DNA of 64,000 bases from Squalus acanthias. Its lineage: Eukaryota. The notes under the pieces were generated by a model, which had not been told where the DNA came from, did not search any database, and saw only the letters and a list, made by a program, of their open reading frames with translations. Location of the stretch: NCBI GenBank assembly GCA_030390025.1, contig CM059431.1, positions 96,908,001 to 96,972,000 on the forward strand, read 5' to 3'. A program made the translations under genes and the position numbers. Below are positions 1 through 59,340 of the stretch, in pieces; positions within the stretch are counted from its first letter, which is position 1; each line of letters starts with the position of its first letter.

Positions 1-2480
1 ACTATTTCTAGGGCCACTTCCTTAAGTACCCTAGGATGTAGATTATCAGGCCCTGGGGATTTATCAGCCTTTAATGCCGTCAATTTCCCTAACACCATTT
101 CCCTACAAATACTGATTTCATTCAGTTCCTCCCTCTCATTAGACCCTGTGTTCCTCGACATCTCTGGGAGGTTATTTGTGTTCTCCTTTGTGAAGACAGA
201 GCCAAAGTATGTATTTAATTGGTCTGCCATTTCTTTGTTCCCCATTATAAATTCCCCTGATTCTGACTGCAAGGGACCTATGCTTGACTTCACCAATCTT
301 TTTCTCTTCACATATTTATAAAAGCTTTTACAGTCAGTTTTTATGTTCCCTGCAAGCTTACGCTCGTACTCTATTTTCCCCCTTTTAATTAATCCCTTTG
401 TCCTCCTTTGCTGAATCCTAAACTGCTCAATCCTCAGGTTTACTTTTTTTTCTGGCCAATTTATATGTCCTCTCCTTGGATCTTATGCTATCCCTGATTT
501 CCCTTGTCAGCCATGGTTGAGTCACCTTTTTAATTTTATTTTTATGCCAGACAGGGATGAACAAATTCTGTAGTTCATCCATGCAATCTTTGAATGTTTG
601 CCATCGCCTATCCACCGTCAACCCTTTGAGTAACATTCCCAAATCTATCCTACCCAACTCATGCCTCACACCATCGTAGTTTCCTTTATTTAAATTCAGG
701 ACCCTAGTCTCTGAGTCAACTATTTCATTCTCCACCTTAATGAAGAATTCTATCATATTATGATTGCTCCGCCCAAGGGGCCCCGTACAACAAGATTGCT
801 AATTAATCCTTCCTCGTTACATAATACCCAGTCTAAGATGGCCTGGTCTCTAGTTGGTTCCTCGACATATTGGTCCAGGAAACCATCCCGTATACACTCC
901 AGGAATTCCTCCTCCACAGTATTGTTGCTAATTTGGTTAGCCCAATCTATATGTAGATTAAAGTCACCCATGATAACTGCTGTGCCCTTATTGCATGCGT
1001 CTCTAATTTCCTGTTTAATGCCATCGCCAACCTCTGCATTACTGTTTGGGGGTCTGTATACCACTCCCACTAACGTTTTCTGCCCCTTGATATTTCTCAG
1101 CTCTACCCATACGGATTCCACATCATCAAAGCTAATATCCTTCCTTACAATTGTGTTAATCCCCTCTTTAACCAGCAATGCTACCCCACCTCCTTTTCCT
1201 TTTTGCCTGTCTTTCCTGAATATTGAATACCCCTGGATGTTGAATTCCCAGCCTTGGTCACCCTGGAGCCATGTCTCCGTAATCCCAATCATATCATATC
1301 CGTTTACCTCTATTAGCGCAGCTAATTCATCCACCTTATTATGAATGCTCCTCGCATTAAGACATAAAGCCTTCAGGCTTGTTTTTTTTAACACTCTTAG
1401 ACCTTTTAGAATTATTATTTACTGTGGCCATGTTTGATTTAAACTCTTGATTTCTCTGACTGTCACCTTTGCTTTTCTCCTTCCTGTCTTTTGCTTCTAT
1501 CCTTGTTTCCCTTTCCTCTGTCTCCCTGCTCAGGTTCCCAACTCCCTGCCATTTTAGTTTAAACCCTCCTCCCCCAGAGCACTAGCAAACACTCCCCCTA
1601 GGACATCGGTCCCGGCCCTGCCCAGGTGCAAACCGTCCAGTTTGTACTGGTCCCACCTCCCCCAGAACCGGTTCCAATGTCCCAGGAATTTGAATCCCTC
1701 CCCCTTGCACCATTCCTCTAGCCACGTATTCATTTGAAATATCCTTCTATTTCTACTCTGACTAGCACGTGGCACTGGTAGCAATCCTGAGATTACTACC
1801 TTTGAGGTCCTATTTTTTAATTTACCTCCTAACTCCATATATTCTGCTTTTAGGACCTCATCCCGTTTTTTTATCTGTATCGTTGGTACCTATATGCACC
1901 ACGACAACTGGCTGTTCACCCTCCCCCTCCAAAATGCTCTGTAGCTGCTCCGAGACATCCTTAACCCTTGCACCAGGGAGGCAACATACCATCCTGGAGT
2001 CTCGTTTGCGGCCGCAGAAACGCCTATCTATTCCCCTTACAATAGAATCCCCTATCACTATAGCTCTCCCACTCTTTTTCCTCCCATCCTGTGCAGCAGA
2101 ACCACCCACGGTGCCAGGAAGTTGGCTGCTGCTGTCTTCCCCTGATAAGCCATCTCCCTCAACAACATCCAAAGCAGTATATCTGTTTGAGAGGGGGATG
2201 GCCACAGGGGACCCCTGCACTACCTGTCTGCACCTCCTACTCTGCCTGGTGGTCACCCATTCCCTTCCTGCCTGTACAGCCTTTACCTGCGGTGTGACCA
2301 ACTCCCTAAACGTGCTATCCACGATGTCCTCAGCATCGCGAATGCTCCAGTATGCATCCATCCGCAGCTCCACTGCCACAATGCGGTCTGTCAGTAGCTG
2401 CAGCTGGATACACTTCCTGCACACATGGTCAACAGAGACACAGGAAGTGTCCCTGTTTTCCCACATAGCACAGGAGATCC
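1..2480 (-). mobile_element. CR1-family LINE, 5' part (ORF1 + endonuclease end of ORF2), continues off left edge
   Basis: ORF 753..1394 has APE-type endonuclease motifs (LNARS, ITETW, GGGVAL, VYRPP, GDFN); 427..756 continues ORF2 after a frameshift; DNA closely matches the copy at 9150-10590. Confidence 0.95.
1554..2466 (-). pseudogene. CR1 ORF1, SGNH/GDSL esterase-like, frameshifted
   Basis: ORFs 1858..2466 and 1554..1838 carry an N-terminal CxxC/leucine-rich part, then GDSIVRG, HIGTND and DGLHL blocks typical of CR1 ORF1; frameshift near 1860. Confidence 0.9.
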
Positions 2481-3152: not shown

Positions 3153-3498
3153 TATTTGTCATTAAGGTAATTTCGCTGTCCACATGGTCCTTGTGCAAGG
3201 GGCCACTTTAAAAAGTAAAAAAAAAATCTCCCCAATCTTCGGGGGTCTTGCAGGCTTCCTCCGTGAAGATTTCAAGGGTCGAGACAAGAGTGCCAATCAT
3301 TTCTGCCAATAGGGCAACATTGCCTATGAAATCTAGGTCCGTGAATAGAGGCTCCATCCATCGAGCGATGGTTGCTCCTTCCTAGAACGGTTTCAAAGGA
3401 ATCTGGAGTGATGAGACACCCTTGTCTAATACCGGAGTTGACTGGAAAGGGCTGACGCTCATCCCTTTCAAATCCTCACCGAGGATAAGGCAGAGACT

Positions 3499-3598
3499 TA
3501 TTCTGATGAAAGGTCATCGACCTGAAACGTTAACTCTCTTTCTCTCTCCACGGATGCTGCCTGGCCTGCTGAGTTTTTCCAGCGTTTTCTGTTGTTAT
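3499..3598 (+). mobile_element. 100-bp Penelope-like terminal mini-insert with minimal hammerhead motif
   Basis: ctgatga-a-aggtc-atc-gacct-gaaa-cgtt core; 13-bp direct repeat taaggcagagact at 3486-3498 and 3599-3611; same sequence lies downstream of the GIY-YIG ORF at 59010..59279. Confidence 0.85.
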
Positions 3599-3893
3599 TA
3601 AGGCAGAGACTAATCGTTTGAGCTTATCAGGGCTCCCAAGGATGGAAAATATTTGCCAAGGGGCAGGTCTATACATAGAGCCAAATGCTGATTTAAGATC
3701 AACAGAGGCCACATATTGGGCCATGATATTCTCGCCTGGTCTGTGCGTCGGTATCCGATCAACTGTCCATCAGCCAGGGTGAAGCAACTTTACTTTTGTC
3801 TTCTCTTCTTATGTAGAAGAGGTCCTAATCTGCTCAGAAGTATATGAGCAAAATGCCTTTCCTGTGGGAGGAGGGGGGGGGGGGGGAGGCGGT

Positions 3894-4147
3894 GGTGACA
3901 GTGGGAACATGTGAAGGAGTGACAGTGGGAACATGTGAAGGGGTGACAGTGGGAACATGTGAAGGGGTGATAGTGGGAACATGTGAAGGGGTGACAGTGG
4001 GAACATGTGAAGGGGTGACAGTGGGAACATGTGAAGGGGTGACAGTGGGAACATGTGAAGGGGTGACAGTGGGAACATGTGAAGGGGTGACAGTGGGAAC
4101 ATGTGAAGGGGTGACAGTGGGAACATGTGAAGGGGTGACAGTGGGAA
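3894..4147. repeat. 24-bp minisatellite, about 10.5 copies
   Basis: Unit ggtgacagtgggaacatgtgaagg; explains the 8-aa repeat ORFs. Confidence 0.97.
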
Positions 4148-6478
4148 GGAACATTTAACGAAGTGCCGTTTCATGCTACTTCCAGTCTTACACGGGAGAA
4201 CCAATGTGTTTGCCGTGTCTCGCTTCCTGGTGCCGCCAGGCCCTTCGCCCATTCCGCCGGCTCCCGCCCAGATTTTCTCCAGAAACTTTTATTCACCTTC
4301 CTGCCAGTGCCAGGAAACAGACCCTCCCTTCTCAACTCCGCTTCCTGCACCTCGTCCTCCACAGAAGGGGATCGGAATCTGGAACCGCTCCTCGCAAGCA
4401 ACACTTTTTACTTTTAGCAATTCCTTGGGGTAAATAAAATCCTGAAAGCTCATAAATGAACCGGTGATGGGGAATCCCGAATTTCAATGTCACAACACTC
4501 CACAAACACCCCTCTGTCCCGAACCCTGCCAGAACTGCACACCTCTGTTAGACCAGCAATGCCTCGCCTGGCACAGAAAGCTATGCGTCTCAGCACCTGC
4601 CAGTGACCAAGGCAGCAAGGTTTTATTGGAGGGTATTTAAATGCGAGTCCGCCAGTCCAAACAAAAATCTCAAATAGGAATTTCACAAGGTTCAAGTAGA
4701 AAACATTATCACTTCAATCAATCTGACAATTTAAATAAAGCAAACGGAAAGACAAAACTTCTAAAGTACAAATTCCAAGCACTGGTTCTGTATCACTCGT
4801 CTATCAATAACTTCACCCCCGTTCACTGCAATATTCCGCGGGACATTTCGCAGCTCCAGCCCAACTAATGGGTTTCACTGGTGGAATTGCGGGACTGACC
4901 AGCTCTGGAAGATCATCTGTTCTTTCTGTGTTTCTATCCAGTGACCTAAAGCACAATCTTTCCACAGGAATTGTCCGATAAAAATAATCAGAGAGCTGTC
5001 AGGGGTTGCTTGAAAGCCACTGCACCTGTCCAGAGGAAATGCGGCCAAAGTACGCCAGCTGTAGAGGCAATGCCCCCCCCCCCCCTCCCTTTATCGCGGG
5101 GGAGACGGTGGAACATGGGCCCCACCAGCTCCTAAGCTGCGCTTCTGGAGCTGCCATTTTGCAGATTGATGGGCTAAACCGATCCGGTTATCCAGTACGC
5201 GAGATTACAGACGGATGCGAATTCCTGGCAATTGCCTGTCACTCCGGCTCACGCAGTGAGAGGAGAATCCGCCGGGACCCGATCAATTCACAAATATAAA
5301 ATAAAGTAGCCACTGAAGAGAGAAGGTACACGATGAGGACTTCAAATACTACTGACCCATTCAAAGTGAGTCCGGCCCACTACCCCTCCCGAAAGAAACC
5401 TGTCTGTGTTCTGCCTCCGAGTCTGAAGGAAGGAGTGACATTACTAAGTGTTCCTGCTATTCACAACACTTCAGCAAGTAAAGACTGTTAACACTGGTCT
5501 GGAATACAAGAGCACATCAGATCGGTTGGGAGAACAAAGGCAGGAACTGAAGGTGCTGTTTATTCGATCCAAGTATTAAGCACATGGCAACATTCTACAG
5601 AATCTCTAAAGAAACGACCGTTTGTTATTACAGACCTAGAAATTGGTGAAATTCATCAGCCTCCATTTCCATAAAACATGTCAGTAAGGCCAGAAACAGA
5701 AACCTCGGAAATAATACCATTCTGAAAACAGCACAAAGATATAGAGCCAGCATGTGTCGGATAAATCTCTCTCGCCCCTTCTACACGGATTCTCCTGGAC
5801 TGAATCACTTCACAAAGGTTCCTGTGAAGTCACAGATCCTTCCAATGTTAGAATTCCACAGGCCAGCAGCCGAGAACAGAGCAAGTCGGGTTTTGTCCAT
5901 CACCTCTCCGAGAACCCAATTAACATCGACCAGCACCCGCTGATAAAATGTGCCCATTTGACAGCTGGCATGTGCTGGCTGTTGGGAGTTTTAGTGGCGA
6001 GCCCAAGAACCGTGCGGCGTCCACTGACAGGAACACGTCAACCTGGCTCGAACTGGCAAGCATCGCTTGGGCTCAGGAGGAGCAACGTGTCATTCATATA
6101 TTGTTTCCTCTTCCTGTTGTTTCTCTCCTTTTTCTCTATTTCTTTTTCTCTCTATTCTGCATTTCACTATATTTACAGCTCTCCCGCGGGACTGTGGGCT
6201 TTCTATGTGCTTTCTCTCATCTTTTCTCGCTCACAAGGAAAAGTAGGCAGGAGACGGCTATGGAGGCAAGACTATCCCAGCATTCACAGAGCCACTGATA
6301 CCCATCTATTACAGTGACAGGCCTGATAGGTTTAATAGAGAGCTTTCACCACTGTTATGTGTGCTGGGATAACTCTGCTTCCATACCCTCATTCTCCAAT
6401 GAACAGCAAGAGAGCTGGCAGGATACTGATGTAGGATAGAGCATGTTCCCCAGGAGAGACTCTGCTCTTAAATAACAT

Positions 6479-6565
6479 CAGAAAGTGCTGGAAACACGCA
6501 GCAGGTCAGGCAGCATCGAGGAGAGAGAAACAGAGTCAACCTTTCGAGTCGAACCCTTCGTCAGA
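6479..6565 (-). mobile_element. Penelope-like terminal fragment with hammerhead core
   Basis: Reverse complement reads ctgacgaagggttcgactcgaaaggttgactctgtttctctctcc. Confidence 0.75.
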
Positions 6566-10592: not shown

Positions 10593-12700
10593 GCATGTTC
10601 TTGCCCACTCACGTAGCCTGTCTATTTCCCCTTGAAGCCTCTTTGCATCCTCCTCACAACTTACATTTCCACATAGCTTTGTATCATCAGCAAACTTGGA
10701 TACATTGCCCGAAAATGACCCATTTATTCCTACTCTCTGTTTTCTCTCCATTAACCATTCCTCAATCCATGCTAGTATATTGCCCCCAATCCCATGAGCC
10801 CTAATTTTGTTTAATAACCTCTTGTGTGCCACCTTATCGAATGCCTTCTGAAAATCCAAATTCATCACATCCACTAGTTCCCCCTTATCTATTCTGCTAG
10901 TTACAACCTCAATAAACTCGGACAGATTTGTCAAACATGATTTCCCTTTCATAAATCCATGTTGACTCTGCCCAATCCTATTATTATTTTCTAAGTGCCC
11001 TGTTACCATGTCCTTAATAATAATTGTAGCATTTTCCCTACCACTGATGTCAGGCTAACTGGTCTGTAGTTCCCCATTTTCTCTCTCCCTCCTTTCTTCA
11101 ATAGTGGCGTTATATTTGCTATCTTCCAAACCACTGGAACCATTCTAGAATCTATGGAATTTTGGAAGAAGACAACCAATGCATTCACTATCTCTATAGC
11201 AACCTCTTTCAAAATCCTAGGATGTAGGCCATCAGGTGCACAGGATTTATCAGCTTTCAGTCCCATTAATTTCCCCAGAACTTTTTTTTACGAATACTAA
11301 TTTCTTTCATTTCCTCATTCTCGCTAGACCCTTTGTTCTCCGCTATTTCTGGGAGTTTTTTTTGCGTCTTCTTCCATGAAGACAGACACAAAGTATTTGT
11401 TTAATTTCTTCACCATTTCCTTATTCCCTATTATAATTTCTCCTGTCTCAGCCTGTAAAGGACCCACATTTACTTTTGCTAATCTTTTCCTTTTTACATA
11501 CCTATAGAAGCTTTTACAATGTGTTTTTATTTCTCTTGCTAGTTTACTCTCATATTCTATTTTCCCTTTCTTTATCAATTTCTTGGTCCTCCTTTGCTGA
11601 ATTCTAAAATTCTCCAAATCCTCAGGCGTACTGTACTTTTTGGCAACATTATAAGCCTCTTCCTTTGATCTAATACTATCTTTAACTTCTCTTGTTAGCC
11701 ACGGTTGGACTACTTTTCCTGTGGGGTTTTTGTGCCTTAAAGGAATGTATATTTGTTGAAAATTATGTATTAATTCATTAAATGCTAGCCATTGCTTGTC
11801 TACCATCATATCTTTTAATGTAGTTTCCCAAACTATCTTAGCCAAATCGCCCCTCATACCTACATAGTTTGCTTTGTTTAGATTTAAGACCCTAGTTTCA
11901 GATTTAACGAAATCACTTTCGAACTTAATACAAAATTCCATCATATTATGGTCACTCTTCCCTAAAGGCCCTTTTACTGCAAGGTTATTAATTAATCCTT
12001 TCTCATTGCACAATACTAGATCTAAAATAGCCTGTTCCCTAGTTGGTTCCTCAACACACTAATTTCCTGATTTATACTCTGCCCTACATTACAACTACTG
12101 TTTGGGGGCCTATAAACAACTCCCACCAATGTTTTCTGTCCCTTGCTGTTTCTTAGCTCCACCCAAACTGATTTTACTTCTAGATTTTTGGAGCTAAGAT
12201 CCTTTCTCTCTACTGTCTTTATCCCATCCTTTATTATCAGGGCTACTCCTCTTCCTTTTCCATTTTGCTTATCTCTTTTAAACATTACATATCCTGGAAT
12301 ATTTAGTTCCCAACCATGGTCACTTTGCAACCACATCTCCATAATGGCTATTAGATCAAACCTATTAATTTCTATCTGTGCTATTAATTCATCTATTTTG
12401 TTGCAAATGCTTCGTGCATTCAGATATAGTGCCTTTAGCTTTGACTTATTTCTATTTTTCCCTGATGTCCTCTTAGTCACTGATTCCCTATTACCTTTGT
12501 TACTCTCTCTGTCCCTTCCTGACCCACTCTGCTTATTTTTACCCCAAACTCTGCTCTGCTCTAGAGCCTTGGCATTTCTCTCGCTGCTTTTAAGTTTACT
12601 CTTTCTTGAATCCTCCCACCCACCCACCTTCATTAGTTTAAAGCCCTGTCTACTGCCCTAGTTATTCGATTCGCCAGGACACTGGCTCCAGCCTGATTAA
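10593..12700 (-). mobile_element. Second CR1 subfamily copy, 3'-truncated with internal deletions
   Basis: ORFs 12022..12633 (endonuclease), 11324..12013, 11003..11266 and 10482..11009 (RT part). Segments are missing near 12060 and 10708 relative to other copies. Confidence 0.92.
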
Positions 12701-13279: not shown

Positions 13280-13372
13280 CTGTTTCTCTCTCCACAGAAG
13301 CTGCCTGACCTGCTGAGTATTTCCAGCATTTTCTGTTTCTATTTCAGATCTCCAGCATCCGCAGTGTTTTGC
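13280..13372 (+). mobile_element. Older Penelope-like terminal fragment
   Basis: ctgtttctctctccacagaagctgcctgacctgctgagtatttccagc...ccagcatccgcagtgttttgc. Confidence 0.8.
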
Positions 13373-13514
13373 TTTGTTTTTATTTTATGAAAGAAAGGCT
13401 CCCGATTACCTTAGTGAAGGGACCTGTGTGAGGGCACAGGACAACCATGGAGACTTACACAACAGTGGGTGGGAAACATTGAGGAAAGGAGTCAACAGAT
13501 TGAGTTATATCGCG

Positions 13515-13748
13515 AAATAACAACAGAAAACGCTGGAAAAACTCAGCAGGCCAGGTAGCATCCGTGGAGAGAGAAACAGAGTCGATGAGCTGTCAGCTTA
13601 TTTGATGTCTGTCTGCTGTCTGACGAAAGGTCTTCGACCTGAAACGTTAACTCTGTTTCTCTCTCCACGGATGCTGCCTGGCCTACTGAGTTTTCCAGCG
13701 TTTTCTGTTGTTATTTCGGATTTCCAGCATCCGCAGTATTTTGCTATC
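13515..13748. mobile_element. Inverted pair of Penelope-like termini with captured 40-bp spacer and 13-bp TSD
   Basis: Minus terminus 13515-13580, spacer 13581-13620, plus terminus 13620-13748 with ctgacga...gaaacgtt; gagttatatcgcg at 13502-13514 and 13749-13761. Confidence 0.88.
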
Positions 13749-14210
13749 GAGTTATATCGCGTCTTGACTGTAGAGAAACAGCCTGAGGCTTCTCAGAGGA
13801 GCATCAATTTACTGACACATTGCTATCAGCATATTATGAAAAACTAATCCAATCTAATCGTTGACACGGTGCACAGATGCTGCTATTGCCTCCAAAGGGT
13901 TAATTTATTTGATAGAATAAAATATAAAAAGACTTCCCATCACTTTCTGCCGCTTTGCGGTTCAGTAAAATGTCAGTCATTTATCACCCGCTCAATGACG
14001 TCTTCCAATGCTAACATCTCACTAATTTGCAAGTTATCTGCAGTTCCATTCACCTCCTTTTCTAACAATACACCTCTGCTTCTGCACCTCACGGATGAAG
14101 CAAATGTGGTTTCATATTTAGCGCGAGCGATCACAGGGAATTGGCTCAATGTTACTCGCTTCACTGCTCAGAGTGACCATCCTTCAACTCTAATGATTGA
14201 GGGCGTCAGT

Positions 14211-19790: not shown

Positions 19791-20291
19791 TAATAGGATA
19801 TAGTTGCTGCATTGGTGGATAAGCATGTTTGAAATGTTAATATAAGCAGCTGTGACACACCGATGTGCCGGCATAGATTTTCTGCCCATGCACCGCTAGT
19901 TTGTTTTGGCAAAGCTAGGGCTAACTGAGGTGGGCAATTACTCGGGGATATGCTCAGCCATGTGCTTGCCTCCTGCTATGCCACCTCCCCAATTTCCCAC
20001 TCCCCAGCTCAGCATCATTTATTGTACCCATCCACATGTGCACGGGCAAATCGAGACAACGTGCCGATGACAGTTTACTCAATCTATAGCACCGCCTTAC
20101 AAACAATATACAGAACCCGTTTACCAAAAGCATACAAGGGAGTATTCCCCTCGCCTCCCGCATCCTGTGGAAACGAGGCAGATGAGCAATTAAAATAGCC
20201 TGGGAATTTACTGCCCCATTGCCGCTCCCACCGCACACTCTTTTTAGGCTGCTGCCTCGTGAATATGTGAAAATGGGTGTCGAATTATGTC

Positions 20292-21842
20292 GATAGCAAA
20301 ATACTGCGGATGCTGGAAATCCAAAATAACAACAGAAAACGCTGGAAAAACTCAGCAGGCCAGGGAGCATCCGTGGAGCGAGAAACAGAGTTAACGTTTC
20401 AGGTCACAGACCTTTTGTCAGAACTGGAAAAAAGCAGGAAATGAAATAGATTTAAAGCAAGTATAAAGCTGGGAAAAGGGGGAGGGGATGAAGGAACAAA
20501 AGGGAAGGTCAGTGGTAGGAGAGATTAAGAGACATTGAGAGACATTAAGAGATAATCAAGGCAAGAGGAGGTGGTAATGTGACAGGTTGAGGCTAGATGA
20601 AGTGTGAAATGCGCTGGCAGAATGAAGGACAGCTGCCAGCTTCTGGGAGGGATAAAAAAGGCCAAACAAAAGGGTAGATGAAAAAATAAAATAAAAATTT
20701 ATATTTTTACATTTACATTTATATTTTTTTATTTTATTTTTTCATCCACCCTTTTGTTTGGCCTTTTTTCCCCCTCCCAGAAGCTGGCAGCTGTCCTTCA
20801 TTCTGCCAGCGCATCTCACACTTCATCTAGCCTCAACCTGTCACATTAACACCTCCTCTTGCCTTGAATATCTCTTAATGTCTCTCAATGTCTCTTAGGG
20901 CTGGATTTTCATTGACCCGTGGAGGCGGGTTTGGAGGCGTGTGGGGGGTTAAAATTGCAAAAACTGGCGGGCGGGCACAGGTCCGCCTCCATCCCGCCTC
21001 CACGCAATTTTCATTAAATCGTGTCTGCTGGTCCCGACTCCATCCCGCCTTTAAGAGGCAGGATAGGCTGTTAAGGCCCTTAACAAGCACTAAATTGGCT
21101 CTATAATGCCATTTTGAAAGGCCTTTGTGATTTTAACCCTTGATCTACGTGAAGCACGCCTGTTCTGAACCACGATTGTGAAACCTGGCGGGAGCACATT
21201 TGGATAGCTGACTATCAGCTGCAGGTCCACTATTACAACGGAGATGTGATGAAGGTAGTAGTAGTATTAGGTCTGAAAGTCGCCTCTGATGCTGCTGCAT
21301 TGAACGTCTTCAGAGACTGCCTGGCCTTTGCTGTGAGAGGACCTGGATGCAAAAAAAAAATCTCTCTCTCTCTCTCTCGCTGCTGCTCATTTTGCATCCA
21401 GGTCCTCTCACAGCAAAGGCCAGGCAGTCTCTGACCTTCAATGCAGCAGCAATGATGACATCATCAGAGGCGACTTTCAGACTGAAAACACTAATTGGTT
21501 CATGGGTTCCCACATGCTGGAACTCAATTGCCCAATTAGGTGAAAATTGCATCAATCTCCCACATCCAATTGCAGTCGGGTGGATAACATGAAATGTGGA
21601 TGACACGACCCCAACCCACCCCAGTATCAAAATCCAGCCCTTAATCTCTCCCACCACTGACCTTCCCTTTTGTTCTTTTATCCCCTCCCCCTTTTCCCAG
21701 CTTTATACTTGCTTTAAATCTATTTCATTTCCTGCTTTTTTCCAGTTCTGACAAAAGGTCTTCGACCTGAAACGTTAACTCTGTTTCTCTCTCCACGGAT
21801 GCTGCCTGGCCTGCTGAGTTTTTTCGGCATTTTCTGTTGTTA
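20292..21842. mobile_element. Fold-back Penelope-like insertion (two ~0.4-kb inverted arms), interrupted by a MITE
   Basis: 20322-20700 is the near-exact reverse complement of 20720-20897 plus 21641-21842; 14-bp TSD tgtcgaattatgtc at 20278-20291 and 21843-21856. Confidence 0.9.
20898..21640. mobile_element. Non-autonomous PIF/Harbinger MITE, 743 bp
   Basis: 12-bp TIR gggctggatttt / aaaatccagccc; TTA duplicated on both sides; the empty site is preserved in the other palindrome arm. Confidence 0.92.
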
Positions 21843-21877
21843 TGTCGAATTATGTCATTAGGACCACGATGCAATTT

Positions 21878-26204: not shown

Positions 26205-26333
26205 CTGCAGATCTGAAACAACTGCAGATCTGAAACAAACCCCCAGGAAATGCTGGAAACACTCAGCAGGTCAGGCAGCATCTGTGGAGAGAGAGATAGA
26301 GTTAACGTTTCGGATGTGGACCCTTCATCGACT
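26205..26333 (-). mobile_element. Penelope-like terminal fragment
   Basis: tgctggaaacactcagcaggtcaggcagcatctgtggagagagagatagagttaacgtttcgg; hammerhead core mutated. Confidence 0.75.
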
Positions 26334-30282: not shown

Positions 30283-31327
30283 ACTTATGCCATTCTGAAA
30301 CAGCATTTCATCCAACTTTCTGTGCGAAAACCCAGAGTAGATCAGCCAGTGCTGTATTTTATGTATAATTTCTTAACTACAGAACATAATATAAATATCT
30401 TGACAGTAATTGTAATAATTTGGTTGAATGTAGGCACAGTCATTGTCAGTGAGTTTGCAAATCGCTTTAGTTACTGGCAGTAGGGGGAGCTGTGGCTTCA
30501 TTCGCTGTGAACACTGACTGCACATTGCCTGATAATCTGCAGCTGCCCAGAAACCTCCCCTTATAGTTTCTCAGCCTCTTCCTACATTATATAGCCCACA
30601 GGGATAGTGTTGTCCCCCCTCCTCCATCGTCTCCTCTCCTCCTGAAGGCAATGACTACTATTTATATGTGAGACTGGACAGGTCCTGGCAGATTATTTGA
30701 CCATGATAGGCATCACAACTGAACCATCCTCATTTTACGTTTATCTTTCTTTCATCGAACTCCTCGCCTGACAGAAACAGCATGTTGAATATTTCATGGT
30801 GAAGCTGGCGTTGGTTACTGATCTCTCCTCCCAGTCCCATGTACTGTTGTGTCCAATCTGTGGATAGTGCATCTATGACCAACTTTGGAAGTGGGTCTGA
30901 GGGAGCAGGCTGGGTGTTGTGGTGTTGGGAATCATTGGACTCTGGGCTATGCACACACTGTCCATACACTGAGCCAACCTCACACCATAATGTGAGTTTA
31001 GCTCATTATTGGCCCCCGTTACTCTCCGCTCCACCAGCAGACTGCTCATTTTCCAGGTGCGATGGAGAGAAAAAATGGTTCAGAGATCTATTACATGGGG
31101 TCTCTGGCCCTTTATGTTGCCCTATGATTCCTGGAGTCTCCGGGGGTCGGGACTGTCTGTAGCTCCAATGTGAATTATCCCTCCTGAAATGAGGCGGAAC
31201 ATTCGGACTCCTTTCGCCTCATGTTCCTGCAACCAAGGCCTTTTTCGGGGCATTTCAAGAAGCTGGGGGTGGGTCTTGAACCTCGGATCAGAGGACCCGA
31301 CGGGGCAAGGCAGCACGGGAAATTAAT

Positions 31328-31795
31328 TAAAACAGAAAATGCTGGAAATACTCAGCAGGTCAGGCAGCATCAATGGAGAGAGAAACAGAGTTAATGTTTC
31401 AGGTTGATGACCTTTCGTCTATACTGGAAAAAGTTACAGATGTAACAGGTTTTAAGCAAGTGAAGGGGCAGGGAAAGGGTGGGGGGAGAAAAGAACAAAA
31501 GGAAGGTCTGTGATAGGATGGAAGGCAGGAGAGGGTAAATGACAAAAGGGATGATGGTGCAAGGTGAAAGGAGATGGTAATGGGACAAGTAAAGAAACAA
31601 AAGATGGGTCAAGAGGAGGTGTGAATGGGAATAACAGAATCATCAATGTTGAGTCCAGAAGGCTGTAAAGTGCCTAATCGAAAGATGAGGTGCTGTACCT
31701 CGAGCTTACGTTGAGCTTCATTGGAACAGTGTAAGAGGCTGAGGACAGAGAGGTTAGAGTGGGAGTGGAGTGGAGAATTAAAATGAAAGGCGTAA
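31328..31795 (-). mobile_element. Penelope-like element 3' part (GIY-YIG C-terminus, UTR, terminus)
   Basis: HFNSPLHSHSNLSVLSLLHCSNEAQRKLEVQHLIFRLGTLQPSGLNI in ORF 31609..32076; homologous to 58678-59295. Confidence 0.88.
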
Positions 31796-34671: not shown

Positions 34672-36782
34672 GCCCAGAAATTGGGCTACTTAGCGCCACT
34701 GGTTTGCCCCACAATCCTGGTAAAAAAAATAGCGGCCGCCACGCTAATGCCCGCCATTTTGGTGATGGCCTTAGCACTGCCGATAGCAGCGCTGGCCCTG
34801 GAGATGCAAATATGGAGAGCGTGATGTCACGTTGACTTAACGTCACACTCTGCGAACTTGGACCTTTGCGCTGGTTCCTAAGCGAGCGTGCAGCAAATTG
34901 ACAGAGACGCTGTCAGCACTTCTCAAATTGACACATACATCTTTCAGGTAAGTTTGCATTTAAGCTTTTTGACTGGATTTTTTATGTTTTATTGAAGTAG
35001 TGGTTTGGTGCAATACATGTTAAAAGTGTTTAAAGTGTGCAGGAAATGCTGCTGGCCGCTTACAAGGCCTCGGAGATTAAGGAAGGCCTCTGCGAAGACA
35101 GAAAAAGCTAGAAATACACAGCAGGTCAGGCAGCATCCGTGGAGAGAGAAACAGAGTTCACATCTCAGGTCGCGTTGCTGCCTGACCTGCTGAGTATTTC
35201 CAGCATTTTAAGTTTTTTATTTCAGATTTAAAGCATCTGCTCGCAGAGAGAAGAGAGGAAGCAGAAGGAAGGATGCAACCCAGGCAGTCCCTTTCTAGCC
35301 GGGATATCCAGGGTGGAATGATCCACCTGCAGTACCAGTGACCACAACCCCAATTCCCCTTTCAACATTTGTCCCACACCTTACCTTCCCTCCATTACTG
35401 ACCATCACAGTGTCTTCTTGGCCACAATGCGGAAATAAAAGCCACCACAAAGCAAACTTTCCAATCCAACTTTATACATCTATCCATCCAATATGACATC
35501 AAGACGCCAACTAATCACCTTTATGCATTCCTTTAGTGACTGTCTTGTGTGTATCTTTGCCTATCCTACTGATGTCACGCAGTGCTACCCCAGTGGCTGC
35601 AGCATGGCTGGTGGAAGGCTGCTGACTTTTAGTAGGGGACACTGCAGATGGCCTTGCTGGTCAACCTTGAATAGCTGGTGGCTGAGAGTGTGAAATTTAG
35701 TGGCGGTATTTCTTCTTCACTCTCCTCCCCCTCTTCTTGGCCAACCACTGGCTGGGCAGGCTGCATTTCTTGGGTGTGTGAAATGAGGAAGGCACAAGGG
35801 TGGAGTTGTGGTGAGGGGAGGGCGGGAAAGCAAGAGGTGCATGCGAGAAGGAGGATAACGTACGAAAATACCAGCATCTTATATCGTTCAGCTCTGCCAC
35901 TGGCCAAGGGCTCAGCCATGCCCCTGCCAAGAATGGCCAGCACCGCCTCATCCAAGGGGGTGAGGGGAAGCTAGGAAAGGGAGGTGTGCCTCATGTTTGG
36001 TACAGATTATTGGTAGGTGAGGTGAGTGATGGGGGGGGAGTGAGGTGACAGGGAGTCATGCATTGAGCAGTGTGTGAGGCTGTTGGTAGGAGATGGCTTT
36101 TGAAGATGCAGTCACTGACCTTGACCACTGGTCTGAGGTCGTGAAGCTTCTTTGGGCATTGGAGTCAGGTGGTGGGGCGACATTGCTGGCAGTGACGGCC
36201 TCGCTGATTGGGCCCCATATCCTTCTATCTGGAGGGCCTCCTGGCCCCTGTGGGTTGAGGACCTTTCTTGCAGTGTTGACCCCCTGCACAAAGCTGGAGT
36301 GCTGTGTGTGAGACCCTGGGTGCCCCTTCCCTGGCTTGCTGGGCCATTTGTGTTAGTGCTGAAGCACATTTCCCGTTTTTTGAGGTGCGGAAGGCAATTC
36401 AGCTTTAAGAGCTGAAGTCTGCCATTTGGGAATTCTTTTTAACATCAATTTTTTTTTCAGAAGGCAGTTGAGCTGTAAGGGCTAAAGACTGCCTATTTTT
36501 AAATGATTTTTATTTTTTTCATTTTAGAAGGTAGTTCCCCTTTAAAGTGACAGGCTTGCTTCAAGAGAAGGCTGTTCTTGCTGCAATGATGCTACGTCCA
36601 CGCTACATTGGGTCTCCTGCTGGGACGAACGCCATGAAAGCGGCCTTGCACGGTAAGTTTAGCGCTGGGCTAATGTTAATTAGCAACTAGTACCAAAATC
36701 CCATCCTGCCAGTGCCATTATTTTCGGCGGCCATTACCACGGTGGCACCGACAGGTTTTTAGCGATCTGAAATTTCTCGGCC
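34672..36782. mobile_element. Internally deleted Harbinger element with decayed Myb/SANT gene on the minus strand
   Basis: Termini gcccagaaatt and aatttctcggcc flanked by TGA on both sides. Minus strand near 36120-36160 reads QCPKKLHDLRPVVK|gtcagt, versus QCRKKFNDLTRVVR|gtgagt at 61550. MDEAVLAILGRGMAEPLASGRAE parallels exon 2. Confidence 0.8.
35097..35240. mobile_element. Inverted pair of short Penelope-like termini
   Basis: cagcaggtcaggcagca near 35120 and tgctgcctgacctgctg near 35176 form a hairpin. Confidence 0.8.
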
Positions 36783-37545
36783 TGAGAGTCCAAGTGTGGC
36801 AAACAATGCCCAGGTCTTCAAATATATCAGATATGTATTACACTGGACAGCTCTGGGGTCAACCTACAGTGTGTTAAAATTGTAGATTTTATTTAAAAAA
36901 AATCAACTTTGCTTTATTCTGAAAATCTAAGTTGGTAAATACAATTCTGTTCTCTAACCCTTGTTAGGTTGAAAGTCAGTGGAGATGCACAGATTGTTTT
37001 TACACGTCATGAATAACCTATGTAAGTCTGATCTGAAGGTTATTTCTAAAGGATAATTGGCTGAAAACTGAGCTTCAATAATTCAGAAAATGGCGGGGGG
37101 AGGGGGAAGTAAAATTGGAATAAAAGAGAAAGGGTTGTCTGAGATTCAATTACTTGTCATCTTTCAAACATTACAACGAGATTGAGGTAACCCTAAACAG
37201 ACTAAAAACATAAATCTTCAGTCTGTTGTTCAGTTCATTGTGTTTAGTTTGATAACATTCCTGACCTGGTTCCTCAAACCTGCTTTAATTACACCAGCGA
37301 GTAAGTTAAAAGAAATCCTTTCTTAACACTGGACATTTATCAAGTGTTGTCTTCCAACCAGTGACAGTATTCAGAATGGCAGAGTGTAAATCTCCATTAG
37401 ATGCAGACGTTTATTTCAAATACATTTTATGGAGGTGAATTTTCTCATCCAGTTCAGCCCTTTAGTGGTGTATAAATGGCACAGGAAAATATTTTAGTCA
37501 GGAAAATAGTGTGGCAGCTACCTACACCCAATAGGTCATTAAAAC

Positions 37546-37641
37546 ATTCTGATGAAGGGTCATCGACCTGAAACGTGAACTCTGTTTCTCTCTCTACAGA
37601 TGCTGCCTGACCTGCTGAGTATTTCCAGCATTTTCTGTTTT
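37546..37641 (+). mobile_element. 96-bp Penelope-like terminal mini-insert with hammerhead motif
   Basis: ctgatga-a-gggtc-atc-gacct-gaaa; 14-bp TSD taggtc(a/g)ttaaaac at 37532-37545 and 37642-37655. Confidence 0.85.
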
Positions 37642-38254
37642 TAGGTCGTTAAAACTGTTCTCTGGAGTTCCCTCGCGCTTTAAGTCTTCCGGCGACCCGC
37701 CCATTAATTCTCGATTGTGGGGGGCCATTGGTGTAACAGCTCCTGGTTTCTTCAGCCCACATTTTAAACTGACCTGCCCCTGGGAACAGGGGGTATTGAG
37801 GTCTGATGTGCATTTTATACTCGCCCATTTGACTTTAATGAAGAGTAAAATCAGGCTGAGTCCGACCCGAATCCCCGCCTTTCCTGCTGATTGGGTTAGG
37901 TTAAAATCGGGCTGTGGGTCTGAAGACTGGAGATTTTGAATAGCAATTTCTGCAGCTGGGAAATGCCTTTTTTTATTGCCATTTTGCCTACAAACACCTG
38001 GACTTGGTCTTCACGGTGTCAGACCATCAGAAGACTTCCAATTTTAATACATTTATTGCAGCGAATTCCAAAGTGCACACAATCAACCTACTCTTTCTTA
38101 ACACCGGGTGTCTACAAGTGCATTTTTAAATTTATTTTCGTGCTTTTTCTAGGTAGAACCTGATAGCCAATAGCATAAGAGGTAGATGGCTCCTCAGGCT
38201 GTACAAAAGGCTCATGGGACTGAAGTGGCCCATCTTCTGACAGCTCTCCCTCAA

Positions 38255-52048: not shown

Positions 52049-52880
52049 GAAAGAAAAAAGACTTGCATTTCTACAGCACCTTTCACAACCTCAGGACATC
52101 TCAAAGCGCTTTACAACCAATAATTTACTTTTGAAGTGTAGTCACTGTTGTAATGTAGGAAACGCGGCAGCCAATTTGTGCACAGCAAGCTCCCACAAAT
52201 GGCAATGTGATAATGACCAGATAATCTGTTTTAGTGATGTTGGTTGAGGGATAAAGACACCAGGGAGAACTCCCCCTGCTCTTCTTCATAATAGTGCCAT
52301 GGGATCTTTTAGGTCCGAGAGAGCAGACAGGGCCTCGGTTTAACATCTCATCTGAAAGACGGCACCTCCGACAGTGCAGCATTCCATCAGTACTAAAATA
52401 ACAACAGAAAATGCTGGAAACACTCAGCAGGCCAGGCAGCATCCATGGAGAGAGAAACAGAGTTAATGTTTCAGGTCTGTGACCCTTCGTCAGAACTGGA
52501 AAAAGTTAGAGATGTAACAGGTTTCAAGCAGGTGCAGAGCCAGGGAAAGGGGAGGGGGGGAGGGGAGGAAAGAACAAAAGGGACGGTCTGTGTTAGGATG
52601 GAAGGCAGGAGAGATTAAATGTTGCAAATGGGGATGGCAGAATAATCAACAGCTGCCATTTGAAAAAATAGGGGCAGGGGTTTTGGTCCTCCCTCAGTAC
52701 TGTCGCTCCTACAGTGCAGCACTCCCTCAGTACTGCCCCTCCAACAGTGCAGCGCTCCCTCAGCACTGCACTGGAGTGTCAGCCTAGATTTTTATGCTCA
52801 AGTCTCTGGAGTGGGACTTGAACCCACAACCTTCTGACTCAGAGGCGAGGGTGCTACCAACTGAGCCATGGCTGACACTG
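52049..52880 (-). mobile_element. DeuSINE-like SINE interrupted by a Penelope-like fragment
   Basis: Head 52690-52880 and body/tail 52049-52394 match the reverse complement of 27919-28357; short internal duplications at 52690-52770. Confidence 0.85.
52395..52675 (-). mobile_element. Penelope-like 3' fragment with hammerhead core
   Basis: Reverse complement ccagttctgacgaagggtcacagacctgaaacattaactc. Confidence 0.85.
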
Positions 52881-58677: not shown

Positions 58678-59340
58678 CAAATATAAACAAAAAATGCTGG
58701 AAATACTCAGCAGGTCAGGCAGCATCTGTGGAGAGAGAAACAGAGTTAACGTTTCAGGTCGATGACCTTTTGTCAGAACTGGAAAAAATTAGAGATGTAA
58801 CAGTATTTAAGCAAGTACAGAGGCAGGGAAAGGGGAGGTCTGTGACAGGGTGGAAGGCAGGAGTGATTAAATGACAAAAGATATGATTGTACAAAGCAAA
58901 AGGAGATGGTAATGGGACAAGTAAAGAAACAAAAGATGGGTCTAGAGGAGGTGTAAATGGGAATAGCAGAATCATCAACAGCTGCCATCTGAATAAATAG
59001 TGGCCGAGGTTATGGACTGAAATTGTTGAAATCAATGTTGAGTCCAGAAAGCTGTAAAGTGCCTAATCGAAAGATGAGGTGCTGTTCCTTGAGCTTAAGT
59101 TGAGCTTCGTTGGAACAGTGCAAGAGGCCGAGGACAGAGAGGTCAGAGTGGGAGTGGAGCAGAGAATGAAAGTGACAGGTGAACAGAAGCTCAGGGTCAC
59201 GCTTACGGACTGAACGGAGGTGTTCCGCAAAGTGGTCACCACTCTGCGTTCGGTCTCCCCAATGTAGAGGAGACCGCATCGTGAGCAGCGAATACAGTTT
59301 TTATTTCAGATTTCCAGAATCCGCAGGATTTTGCATCTGG
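58678..59340 (-). mobile_element. Penelope-like element 3' part with GIY-YIG endonuclease remnant and inverted terminal tail
   Basis: ORF 59010..59279 (DHFAEHLRSVRK..CHFHS..HS..LKEQHLIFRLGTLQLSGLN); hammerhead motif 58745-58782 in sense orientation; inverted tail 59298-59337; ctcgatcat at 58669-58677 and 59341-59349. Confidence 0.9.

What the first reader, a model, noticed from the sequence alone, without database searches (positions are those of the whole stretch)
3486..3611. Dispersed minimal hammerhead-ribozyme mini-retroelements of about 100 bp with their own TSDs
Seen: inserts 3499-3598 and 37546-37641 both begin within 4 nt of a CTGATGA core, continue through stem II (aggtc/gacct), GAAA and acgt, end at nearly the same point, and have 13-14-bp direct repeats. 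The motif recurs at about 6550, 13620, 20410, 21750, 26320, 31410, 52480 and 58765. Stem II is mostly kept while its loop varies (atc, ttc, tgt, aca), and longer copies have agtt/aact as stem I. Known: Penelope-like elements carry minimal type I hammerheads with a palindromic stem III that work as dimers. Inference: this lineage has a very abundant ribozyme-bounded short element mobilised by a Penelope RT/GIY-YIG, or a strongly preferred truncation point at the ribozyme. Most copies here have a damaged core or stem (CUGACAA; G at the cleavage site in 37546), so activity is not claimed.
Basis: partly seen in the sequence, partly recalled or inferred. Interest (0 to 1): 0.75.

Follow-up and report, generated by a model that had tools for sequence, protein, structure and literature searches.

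The report
Truncated Penelope retroelement ends with hammerhead
The roughly 100-base inserts are dead-end tail pieces left by an abundant Penelope-like jumping gene of a shark- or ray-type genome, each carrying the small hammerhead RNA motif already known from such elements, so the catch is correct but of a known kind.

Summary
Both inserts, their 13-14-bp target-site duplications and the recurring motif are there.

They are not a separate mini-retroelement lineage. [quoted passage not shown] One full-length copy shows the same sequence, with 1 mismatch, inside both pseudo-LTRs.

A mini runs from the first bases of the minimal hammerhead to one of two 3' ends about 36 nt apart. This is the optional PLE 'tail', explained by two internal reverse-transcription start sites (PMC11167929). 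Head-to-head inverted partners are common.

In the exact-match counts, 898 of 3670 young copies break within 5 nt upstream of CUGAUGA. All 24 sampled breaks are true ends at -4 to 0, mostly at G(-3). At most 153 of 10551 copies break at the predicted cleavage site. So ribozyme cutting does not set the ends.

My preferred cause is a transcript 5' end at the hammerhead. This is inferred, not shown.

All structural features are in print for PLEs. Earlier scan notes on other shark-type genomes agree. Only the sharp 5'-end hot spot is a modest addition.

The parts
3486..3498 (+). Left target-site duplication (taaggcagagact) of mini copy 1
   Evidence: identical to 3599-3611
3499..3598 (+). Mini copy 1. 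It has TATT (probably target or microhomology), then the PLE segment from C of CTGATGA (3503) to ...GTTGTTAT. This is the 'short' 3' end, without tail.
   Evidence: 99 of 100 nt are identical to the pseudo-LTR of a full-length PLE copy (L072/L073).
3503..3535 (+). Minimal hammerhead motif: CUGAUGA core, extra A, 5-bp stem II with ATC loop, GAAA, ACGU palindrome, U17, AACU. The helix I 5' strand is reduced to UU.
   Evidence: 0 mismatches to the motif pattern
3599..3611 (+). Right target-site duplication of mini copy 1
37532..37545 (+). Left target-site duplication (taggtcattaaaac) of mini copy 2
   Evidence: 13/14 identical to 37642-37655
37546..37641 (+). Mini copy 2, from an older lineage, with the short 3' end. 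Its hammerhead has G at position 17 (GUG), so it is not cleavable.
37642..37655 (+). Right target-site duplication of mini copy 2
6466..6565 (-). Mini copy (CTGACGA, decayed stem II) starting at about position 0, with direct repeats ag[a/c]cagagtct
13619..13749 (+). Mini copy with the ~36-nt tail (long 3' end). Its hammerhead pattern is intact but helix I 5' strand is absent. It lies head-to-head with the partial arm at 13514-13582 (-).
13280..13373 (+). Partial copy in which the 5' half of the hammerhead is replaced or degenerate
13514..13582 (-). Partial copy, the inverted partner of 13619-13749
20291..20698 (-). Long 5'-truncated PLE 3' end (pseudo-LTR + hammerhead with CTGACAA + tail). The inverted pseudo-LTR piece at 20726-20896 makes a long hairpin.
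   Evidence: The hairpin gave spurious sub-threshold miRNA matches.
20726..20896 (+). Inverted partial pseudo-LTR (fold-back arm)
21655..21846 (+). Long 5'-truncated PLE 3' end (CTGACAA core)
26222..26329 (-). Mini copy starting at about +2, with decayed stem II
31325..31790 (-). PLE 3' fragment: end of the endonuclease coding region, 3' UTR/pseudo-LTR and a decayed hammerhead
   Evidence: blastn to L052; tblastn to P0003, E 4e-15
35095..35173 (-). Partial copy, one arm of a head-to-head pair
35176..35240 (+). Partial copy, the other arm of the head-to-head pair
52396..52688 (-). Long 5'-truncated PLE 3' end (CTGACGA core, ACA loop, CpG-decayed ACAUU)
58679..59298 (-). PLE 3' fragment: GIY-YIG endonuclease C-terminal coding, stop, pseudo-LTR, and hammerhead with CTGACAA. 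An inverted tail piece at 59286-59334 (+) abuts its 5' end.
   Evidence: tblastn to P0003, E 7e-22; blastn to L052, 88.8% over 644 nt

Best explanation
The 100-135-bp inserts are dead-on-arrival by-products of a young, very abundant canonical Penelope-like element (reverse transcriptase plus C-terminal GIY-YIG endonuclease) of an elasmobranch-type genome.

Each insert is the last segment of the element's pseudo-LTR. It runs from the first bases of the minimal hammerhead to one of two internal reverse-transcription start sites, at about +96 and about +132 from the C of CUGAUGA. The long form therefore carries the classical 30-40-nt PLE 'tail'.

The endonuclease makes staggered cuts, giving duplications of 8-18 bp. 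Target-primed reverse transcription starts at the internal site and copies only about 100-135 nt. Priming from both strands, or snap-back at the hammerhead's own helices, gives the frequent head-to-head inverted partners.

About a quarter of young copies end at -4 to 0, with the mode at G(-3). The most likely reason is that many template RNAs begin there. That would mean a pseudo-LTR promoter (TATA-like box plus an initiator-like CCAGTT/CACAGTT) starts transcription at the first nucleotide of helix I. On that view a mini is a run-off cDNA made when the enzyme starts at the start site next to the RNA's 5' end.

Shown here: PLE identity, anatomy, the two 3' ends, duplications, inverted partners, the 5'-end hot spot, and the lack of ends at the cleavage site. 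Inferred: the transcript start, and which strand events make the inverted arms. Ribozyme activity was not tested.
For: 1. PLE identity.
- Long copies continue upstream into a GIY-YIG endonuclease reading frame with a CxxC linker, a stop, and about 250 nt of 3' UTR.
- Their relatives are elasmobranch proteins with RVT_1 plus GIY-YIG.
- The genome gave 91 scored matches to one of those proteins at 70-71% identity, with open frames up to 1004-1057 aa.

2. Relation to the full-length element. One copy inspected at both ends has the mini's sequence, with 1 mismatch, in a direct pseudo-LTR on each side. It has an 8-9-bp duplication, and the frame is open from the hammerhead into the ORF.

3. Two 3' ends. 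Of 29 minis, 25 have exact direct repeats of 8-18 nt. Of those 25, 12 end at +92 to +99 and 13 end at +129 to +136. This matches the two adjacent internal start sites and the 'tail' shown for an Anolis PLE (PMC11167929, main text read in full).

4. 5'-end hot spot.
- There are 3670 exact copies of the 42-mer that starts at CTGATGA. Of these, 2772 are preceded by CAGTT and 898 are not.
- Of the first 100 listed copies, 24 lack CAGTT. None of the 24 continues into pseudo-LTR sequence.
- Their ends are GTT in about 11, AGTT in 4-6, TT in 2-3, and position 0 in 4. Eight of the 24 abut an inverted copy or tail.

5. No peak at the cut site. Of 10551 copies of the +29 to +70 42-mer, 7366 are preceded by GTT, 3032 by GTC, and 153 by anything else.

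6. The minis are polyphyletic. They occur with N7 = U and with N7 = C, with GTT and with GTC, and in old and young lineages.

7. Constraint on the module. Between the two lineages, the upstream pseudo-LTR is 64-66% identical, the hammerhead 95-100%, and +33 to +97 is 88-89% identical. Hammerhead differences fall only at N7, at 10.1 (A or G opposite U), in loop II, or at CpG decay sites.

8. Promoter-like context. TTAAAT or TTAAAA lies 24-29 nt upstream of A(-4), and CCAGTT is kept across lineages in an otherwise diverged stretch (reading these as TATA box and initiator is my inference).
Against: - No RNA evidence for a start at the hammerhead. Only assembled contigs of public runs were available. 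They gave no table of molecule starts and cannot show expression.
- In Drosophila virilis Penelope, the mapped start lies 46 nt upstream of a 75-nt intron whose 3' end abuts helix I (passages of PMC2377424, and PMC4209133). So a start exactly at the hammerhead is not the published arrangement. The shark sequence before helix I also looks like a splice acceptor.
- The young lineage reads CACAGTT, a poorer initiator match than CCAGTT.
- A stop of the enzyme at a bound protein cannot be excluded.
- Pfam found no family at E up to 0.01 in the decayed endonuclease frame of L052. The Pfam GIY-YIG genome search returned only one unrelated older PLE. Domain identity of this family therefore rests on homologues.
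- My first 30 loci were selected by a query that began with TATT. Their uniform ATT start and 'ATT in the duplication' are partly a selection effect.
- Only one full-length copy was seen, and only at its ends.
- The unbiased sample is 24 plus 15 copies from one chromosome arm.
Confidence: 0.82

Rival explanations
1. The enzyme, not the RNA, sets the 5' end. Reverse transcription starts at the 3' pseudo-LTR of long transcripts and often stops just after copying the hammerhead. The cause would be PLE protein (or its dimer partner) bound upstream of or on the motif, or the cDNA 3' end (AACT) snapping back on its own helix I complement. The short cDNA is then integrated.
For: - Fold-back junctions lie exactly at helix I or stem II in sampled copies: L076, L091, L096, L018, L109.
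- The Anolis PLE protein binds RNA just downstream of the hammerhead and assists ribozyme folding (PMC11167929).
- The same hot spot is seen in both N7 variants.
Against: - A structural block should stop the enzyme before (3' of) the motif. Here it has already copied all 33 nt, and the ends are at its very last bases.
- No excess of ends is seen at +26 to +29 (153 of 10551).
- Only 2 of 39 sampled copies had ends inside the motif without an inverted partner (L100, and the arm in L109).
Confidence: 0.25
2. The minis are a self-propagating, SINE-like non-autonomous family. The idea is a minimal module (hammerhead + enzyme-binding region + start sites) that is transcribed from its own copies and mobilised in trans by the PLE enzyme.
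For: - There are many 99-100% identical copies of discrete length.
- The module is the most conserved non-coding part of the element.
- In vitro, an RNA of similar extent suffices as template for an Anolis PLE (PMC11167929).
- A 2026 preprint argues that animal retrozymes, including monomers, are non-autonomous PLE derivatives (abstract and Results read).
Against: - The minis share every polymorphism of the long copies, so they arose many times.
- They differ by 1 base from a full-length copy's pseudo-LTR.
- They lack the upstream pseudo-LTR where a promoter would lie. No private diagnostic base was found.
- The 100%-identical set was selected by the query.
Confidence: 0.08
3. The inserts derive from hammerhead-processed unit RNAs. 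These could be retrozyme-like (tandem units cut and circularised, then reverse-transcribed) or linear RNAs whose 5' end is the ribozyme cut.
For: - One contig in one run (X9) joins the tail end back to the base before CTGATGA, 132 nt upstream. That would be a tandem junction.
- The HHR core, H17 and helix I are intact in thousands of young long copies.
Against: - At most 1.45% of copies break at the predicted cut.
- No tandem arrays were seen in the window or in 70 loci.
- Short-ended minis do not carry the tail at their 5' side, as a once-round copy of a circle would.
- For the Anolis PLE, ribozyme mutants insert normally and no reads end at the cut site (PMC11167929).
Confidence: 0.03

Closest known systems
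Canonical endonuclease-positive Penelope-like elements (Penelope/Poseidon, Neptune clades) and their insertion signatures
   Same: [quoted passage not shown]
- Pseudo-LTRs from partial tandems, heavy 5' truncation, an adjacent inverted 5'-truncated copy, an optional 30-40-nt tail, and variable target duplications (PMC8557442 passages; PMC2377424 passages).
- All of these were seen here.
- A Cx2C-x-CxxC-like linker (CKCQRCNTC) precedes the endonuclease, as described for Neptune. The clade name is my recollection plus a passage; it was not tested by a tree.
   Different: Nothing categorical. This is a lineage of an elasmobranch-type genome with more than 10,000 near-identical 3' ends. About a quarter of its copies end exactly at the start of the hammerhead. 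I did not find that figure stated in the papers read.
Minimal hammerheads (min-HHR) of metazoan PLE pseudo-LTRs (Cervera and De la Pena 2014, PMC4209133)
   Same: [quoted passage not shown]
- A short helix I of 4 bp, no real helix III, and palindromic 15.2-16.2 (ACGU) that would pair in a dimer.
- They occur mostly as single dispersed motifs 'probably related to truncated PLEs', and as pairs on opposite strands.
   Different: - The 10.1-11.1 pair is A-U or G-U here, not the highly conserved G-C.
- Stem II is 5 bp, against 7-8 bp in the Schistosoma families.
- There is little within-genome variability of the stems.
Anolis carolinensis Poseidon element PAc (Frangieh et al. 2024, PMC11167929)
   Same: - Two adjacent internal start sites explain the tail.
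- The template requirement lies just downstream of the hammerhead, and both DNA strands are cut and extended.
- The ORF frame opens at the hammerhead. The cut site is 26 nt after the AUG formed by A6-U7-G8 in the N7 = U variant here, and the paper gives 26 bp for PAc.
- No sign that cleaved RNA is the template.
   Different: - The start sites here lie about 94 and 130 nt after that AUG, against 111-118 in PAc.
- In the N7 = C variant there is no AUG in the core.
- A preference for ATT targets could not be judged here because my sample was selected for ATT.
Non-LTR retrozymes of animals (Cervera and de la Pena 2020, PMC7229834, search listing only; Li, Clavereau and Pollet 2026 preprint)
   Same: Short non-coding hammerhead-bearing PLE-related sequences, found as monomers and multimers.
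   Different: No tandem arrays and no evidence of circular RNA here. The ends are not at the cleavage site.

Membership tests
Canonical EN+ Penelope-like element (insertion unit) | Single ORF with reverse transcriptase followed by a C-terminal GIY-YIG endonuclease | tested here: met
   - Homologues P0003, P0004 and P0007 carry RVT_1 plus GIY-YIG.
- There are 91 genome matches to P0003 at 70-71% identity, with open frames up to 1057 aa.
- The endonuclease frame lies directly upstream of the hammerhead-bearing 3' UTR.
- Caveat: Pfam found nothing in the decayed L052 frame.
Canonical EN+ Penelope-like element (insertion unit) | Pseudo-LTRs (partial tandem) flanking the ORF | tested here: met
   L072 and L073 are the two ends of one copy. 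The same ~370-nt segment lies before the ORF and after the stop, and the whole is flanked by (t)actcccac. Only one copy was examined.
Canonical EN+ Penelope-like element (insertion unit) | Optional 30-40-nt tail at the 3' end | tested here: met
   Of the 25 minis that have target duplications, 12 have short ends and 13 have ends about 36 nt longer.
Canonical EN+ Penelope-like element (insertion unit) | Frequent 5' truncation and adjacent inverted 5'-truncated copies | tested here: met
   - 5' ends range from 0 to beyond -1000.
- 8 of 24 sampled ends abut an inverted copy or tail.
- The window has such pairs at 13514/13619, 35095/35176, 20291/20726 and 58679/59286.
Minimal hammerhead of metazoan PLEs (min-HHR) | Catalytic boxes CUGANGA and GAAA, with H (not G) at position 17 | tested here: met
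   - 3670 exact copies carry CUGAUGA, and the sampled remainder carry CUGACGA.
- Position 17 is U in 7366 copies and C in 3032.
- In the window only 2 of 7 motifs are unbroken.
Minimal hammerhead of metazoan PLEs (min-HHR) | [quoted passage not shown] | tested here: met
   An A follows CUGAYGA before the 5-bp stem II in all lineages. The feature is listed in PMC4209133.
Minimal hammerhead of metazoan PLEs (min-HHR) | Conserved G10.1-C11.1 pair | tested here: not met
   Position 10.1 is A or G, opposite U at 11.1.
Minimal hammerhead of metazoan PLEs (min-HHR) | Palindromic 15.2-16.2 / loop 3, allowing a dimeric helix III | tested here: met
   GAA-ACGU-U: ACGU is self-complementary and is kept in all lineages except where CpG has decayed.
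Minimal hammerhead of metazoan PLEs (min-HHR) | Helices supported by covariation | tested here: inconclusive
   Stem II and helix I never vary between lineages. The only change is one-sided, A-U to G-U at 10.1. Differences among copies are decay.
Minimal hammerhead of metazoan PLEs (min-HHR) | Self-cleavage (as a dimer or with protein) | not testable with these tools
   No assay was possible, and contigs cannot show RNA ends.
Rfam hammerhead families | Match to a curated covariance model | tested here: not met
   There was no hammerhead match at gathering score or at E up to 10 over the whole window. My explanation is that these models include a helix III that the minimal motif lacks. That explanation is not from a call.
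Non-LTR retrozyme | Head-to-tail tandem arrays of the short unit | tested here: not met
   No arrays were found in the window or in 70 loci. There is a single tandem-like contig joint in one run. No genome-wide search for arrays was made.
SINE-like non-autonomous retroelement | Own lineage (private substitutions) and own promoter | tested here: not met
   The minis share the polymorphisms of the long copies and lack the upstream pseudo-LTR. No promoter test was possible.

The most novel reading that the evidence does not exclude
Transcription of this PLE starts at the very first nucleotide of hammerhead helix I. The ribozyme motif would then sit at the capped 5' end of the genomic RNA.

On this reading the 100-135-nt hammerhead-to-start-site module is a complete minimal template in vivo. 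The thousands of minis would be a natural record of (i) the transcript start, (ii) the two internal reverse-transcription start sites, and (iii) initiation at the 5'-proximal copy of the start site.

Any promoter-bearing truncated copy could then spawn minis. The hammerhead's role would be at the RNA 5' end, for example pairing two RNAs through the ACGU palindrome or helping template recognition, rather than cutting multimers.
Probability: 0.35. Interest if true: 0.5.

Novelty: new member of a known kind. Interest (0 to 1): 0.27.

Why it matters
Little changes for the field. PLE pseudo-LTR hammerheads, tails, inverted arms and dispersed truncated copies are all in print.

The useful points are quantitative:
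- In a genome with more than 10,000 near-identical 3' ends, about one copy in four ends within 4 nt of the start of the hammerhead.
- Almost none end at the predicted cleavage site.
- The two 3' ends lie about 36 nt apart.

This gives in vivo support, from a second vertebrate lineage, for the internal-initiation model derived in vitro for an Anolis element. It also argues that ribozyme-cleaved RNA is rarely the template.

It further gives a testable prediction about where PLE transcripts begin. For annotation, these inserts should be masked as PLE fragments, not called as a new SINE or as ribozyme genes.

Tried and rejected
- Rfam scans. There was no hammerhead family. The top sub-threshold 'miRNA/snoRNA' matches at 20600-20820 are the long hairpin made by two inverted pseudo-LTR pieces.
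- First loose motif pattern. Matches were at chance level because the spacing was wrong. It was replaced.
The unbiased sample is therefore small: 100 kb of random stretches held only 1 copy, plus 24 and 15 short junction pieces.
- Pfam GIY-YIG search of the genome gave one match (L031). This is an older, different PLE without this hammerhead tail within 1.5 kb.
- Pfam on the L052 endonuclease frame found no family.
- Splice-acceptor explanation of the 5' end (exon starting at T(-2) after CAG). It is disfavoured because GTT ends outnumber TT ends, about 11 to 2-3.
- Type III-like alternative hammerhead using an upstream AACU (older lineage only). Rejected by reading the sequence: the triplet before it is UCU, not NUH, and the young lineage lacks it.
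- RNA evidence. All 24 runs found are kept as contigs, and most are only guessed to be RNA. Laying 4 of the 24 (X1, X5, X9, X10) gave a depth step at the module's two borders but no table of molecule starts. This says nothing about expression or the transcript start.
- Folding the 138-nt module. The energy is no better than shuffles, z = -0.2. A 9-bp pairing between CGGAUGCUG and the tail's CAGCAUCCG appears, but it is broken in the older lineage by CpG decay and shows no covariation.
- ATT as a general target motif. My first 30 loci suggested it, but they were selected by the query. Only 58 of 3670 copies have ATT.
- Earlier scan notes by place gave nothing.
Full report
**The observation**

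The two named inserts are as described. Window 3499-3598 lies between two copies of taaggcagagact (3486-3498 and 3599-3611). Window 37546-37641 lies between taggtcattaaaac and taggtcgttaaaac.

Both inserts read ATT, CTGATGA, one extra A, a 5-bp stem II (A/G-GGTC ... GACCT) with an ATC loop, GAAA, CGT, then T or G, then AACT. Both stop at ...TTCTGTT(G/T)TT.

A 22-mer from the conserved part downstream occurs 14 times in the 64 kb (up to 3 mismatches), against none in 100 shuffles. A hammerhead-shaped pattern occurs 7 times against none. Only two of those seven are unbroken. Rfam gave no hammerhead match at gathering score or at E up to 10.

**What the repeat is**

The window lies in a 3.7-Gb assembly. 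Longer copies in the window and elsewhere run upstream of the motif.

One 1090-nt form (L052:936-2025) reads, from 5' to 3':
- the end of a reading frame with a CKCQRCNTC linker and a GIY-YIG-type endonuclease;
- a stop;
- about 250 nt of untranslated sequence;
- AGTT-CTGACGA...GAAACGTT-AACT;
- about 70 more bases.

Pfam found no family in this decayed frame. Its relatives in the protein collection are uncharacterised proteins of rays and sharks, three of which carry RVT_1 plus GIY-YIG. One of them (P0003) matched the genome 91 times among the scored candidates, at 70-71% identity, with open frames up to 1004-1057 aa. In the window, tblastn with P0003 finds endonuclease-coding remains in the copies at 58679-59298 and 31325-31790.

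This is a canonical endonuclease-bearing Penelope-like element (PLE).

**One full-length copy, seen at its ends**

A ~370-nt segment stands before the ORF and again after the stop. It consists of about 235 nt, then the hammerhead, then about 100 nt, then a ~36-nt stretch ending gctatcgta. The whole is flanked by (t)actcccac. That is the pseudo-LTR arrangement of PLEs.

The mini at 3499-3598 differs from this segment by one base. The frame is open from upstream of the hammerhead into the ORF. In the CUGAUGA variant, A6-U7-G8 forms an in-frame AUG 26 nt before the predicted cut. The paper on the Anolis element PAc gives the same figure.

**The 3' ends**

Among 29 minis fetched with the window's copy as query, 25 have exact direct repeats of 8-18 nt. 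Of these, 12 end at +92 to +99 and 13 end at +129 to +136, counted from the C of CTGATGA.

Frangieh et al. 2024 (PMC11167929, main text read) showed three things for a purified Anolis PLE protein:
- reverse transcription starts at two adjacent sites inside the RNA, which explains the optional 30-40-nt 'tail';
- both DNA strands are cut and extended;
- ribozyme mutants insert normally.

The two 3' ends here are the same signature.

**The 5' ends**

My first 30 loci all began N-ATT-CTGATGA. That was a selection effect, because the query itself began TATT. Exact whole-genome counts correct it:
- The 42-mer starting at CTGATGA occurs 3670 times (reversed-pattern control 0).
- It is preceded by CAGTT, and so continues into the pseudo-LTR, 2772 times.
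- It is preceded by ATT only 58 times.

Of the first 100 listed places, 24 lack CAGTT. I fetched 22-45 nt at each of them. None continues into pseudo-LTR sequence, so all 24 are true ends:
- about 11 keep GTT;
- 4-6 keep AGTT;
- 2-3 keep TT;
- 4 start at the C itself.

If the true end is G(-3), about a quarter would show A at -4 by chance, which fits. Eight of the 24 abut an inverted copy or an inverted tail piece.

A second sample took 15 copies that have the downstream part but not the CTGATGA 42-mer. Thirteen are the CTGACGA variant: 11 long, 2 ending at -3 or -2. One starts near +6. One is a fold-back pair.

So about a quarter of young copies end in a 5-nt slot, while the rest are spread over more than 3 kb.

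**No ends at the cut site**

The 42-mer from +29 (AACTCT...) occurs 10551 times. It is preceded by GTT 7366 times, by GTC 3032 times, and by anything else 153 times, or 1.45%. Cleaved RNA is therefore rarely, if ever, the template.

Position 17 is U or C, never a common G. That keeps the NUH rule.

**Are the minis a lineage of their own?**

They occur with N7 = U and with N7 = C, with GTT and with GTC, in the young lineage and in older ones. In the window, 3503 is young, while 37549, 6565 and 26329 are older. They lack the upstream pseudo-LTR. I found no base private to minis.

They look like repeated by-products of whatever PLE variant was active at the time, not a self-propagating family. 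This was not tested with a genome-wide tree.

**Constraint on the module**

I compared real copies of two lineages:

| Region | Identity between lineages |
|---|---|
| Upstream pseudo-LTR | 64-66% |
| Hammerhead (-4 to +32) | 95-100% |
| +33 to +97 | 88-89% |

Differences inside the hammerhead fall at N7, at 10.1 (A or G opposite U), in loop II, or are CpG decay.

In contigs of three coded organisms, summed depth rises 10-25-fold at the first bases of the hammerhead and falls after the tail. This fits conservation plus copy number. It says nothing on expression.

There is no two-sided covariation, because the stems do not vary.

**Why the hot spot?**

The end is at the last base of the motif that the enzyme copies, not the first. 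A structural block is therefore a poor explanation. A spliced exon would start at T(-2), which is not the mode.

A transcript 5' end fits best. CCAGTT (CACAGTT in the young lineage) resembles an initiator. TTAAAT or TTAAAA lies 24-29 nt upstream and is kept across lineages in a diverged stretch. A mini would then be a run-off cDNA made when the enzyme starts at the start site nearest the RNA's 5' end.

This is inference. In Drosophila virilis Penelope, the mapped start lies 46 nt upstream of an intron that ends at helix I. No RNA reads were available here. A stop imposed by bound protein, or snap-back of the cDNA's AACT end on its helix I complement, remains possible. Junctions of that kind exist (L076, L091, L096, L018, L109).

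**Comparison with what is known**

- Cervera and De la Pena 2014 (PMC4209133, parts 1-2 of the text read). They describe minimal hammerheads in PLE pseudo-LTRs with an unpaired base after position 9, a 4-5-bp helix I and palindromic 15.2-16.2. These are mostly dispersed as single motifs 'probably related to truncated PLEs', with some pairs on opposite strands. The motif here meets these features, except that the 10.1-11.1 pair is not G-C.
- Craig et al. 2021 (PMC8557442, passages) lists 5' truncation, the adjacent inverted truncated copy and the 30-40-bp tail.
- A 2026 preprint (abstract and Results read) derives animal retrozymes from PLE pseudo-LTRs.
- Two earlier notes of this scan on other shark-type genomes reached the same reading.

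My three literature searches and the passages read did not show a statement that PLE 5' ends pile up at the first base of the hammerhead. I cannot say it is not in print. Repbase and Dfam could not be consulted, and supplements were not opened.

**Verdict**

The 'strongly preferred truncation point' is supported. The 'mini-retroelement' lineage is not supported. This is a known kind, with a small quantitative addition.

Noticed in passing
L052:936 and 11 other loci of L033-L061: In the older lineage, 12 of 29 long copies share one 5' end about 990 nt upstream of the hammerhead, inside the RT-endonuclease linker coding region. Their upstream flanks are unrelated to each other. This is a second discrete 5'-end hot spot, or a deleted subfamily.
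   Followed up: partly
window 3470-3487 versus L052:928-948: The flank just upstream of mini copy 1 (aaatcctcaccgaggat) matches the first bases of the 1090-nt form plus its flank at 17 of 18 positions. The sequence after the insert does not continue the match. Unexplained.
   Followed up: no
window 20600-20900: Two inverted pseudo-LTR pieces form a ~200-nt near-perfect hairpin. It drew strong but sub-threshold matches to plant miRNA and snoRNA models (MIR841, E 1e-23, 114 bits against a gathering score of 200). This is an artefact of the fold-back.
   Followed up: yes
L047:2085-2160: A copy in which endonuclease-coding sequence (...gagcttccggt) is joined directly to the 10 bases before the hammerhead. 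It is an internal deletion of about 430 nt that removes the ORF end and most of the 3' UTR.
   Followed up: no
window 13247-13300 (+) and 13560-13612 (-): Two partial copies share a variant in which the 5' half of the hammerhead is replaced by ...cagacagacatcaaataagctgacagctcatcgac, joined to (A)CTCTGTTTC. This may be a deleted or rearranged sub-variant.
   Followed up: no
whole genome (pattern counts): The young family is polymorphic at exactly the two hammerhead positions that tolerate change. N7 is U or C, each in roughly half of the copies. Position 17 is U in 7366 copies and C in 3032.
   Followed up: partly
window 14097-15550; 15714-16706; 29501-30321; 39053-39623; 43210-44108 and 46713-47200; 3846-4205: Several minisatellite arrays with periods of 37, 36, 33, 27, 31-33 and 24 bp. 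The 37-bp array has about 40 copies at about 90% identity.
   Followed up: no
window 172-727, 8732-9940, 10708-11915, 23950-24448, 58386-58650, 59350-61000, 60328-60907: Other dispersed repeat families are present. One unit of more than 1.6 kb lies upstream of the copy at 58679-59298 and has many copies at 72-83% identity in the window and loci. They were not identified.
   Followed up: no
L031 (G000:C1:259617737-259620988): A different, older PLE: it has a Pfam GIY-YIG hit at 35 bits and a reverse-transcriptase thumb-like frame upstream. A tRNA-like SINE-type sequence lies about 800 nt downstream. This hammerhead tail is not within 1.5 kb.
   Followed up: partly
L072:330-801 in runs X1, X5, X9: Contigs of three differently coded organisms hold the hammerhead-to-tail module at 90% identity or more, with the same two borders. 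The module is therefore shared across several species.
   Followed up: no
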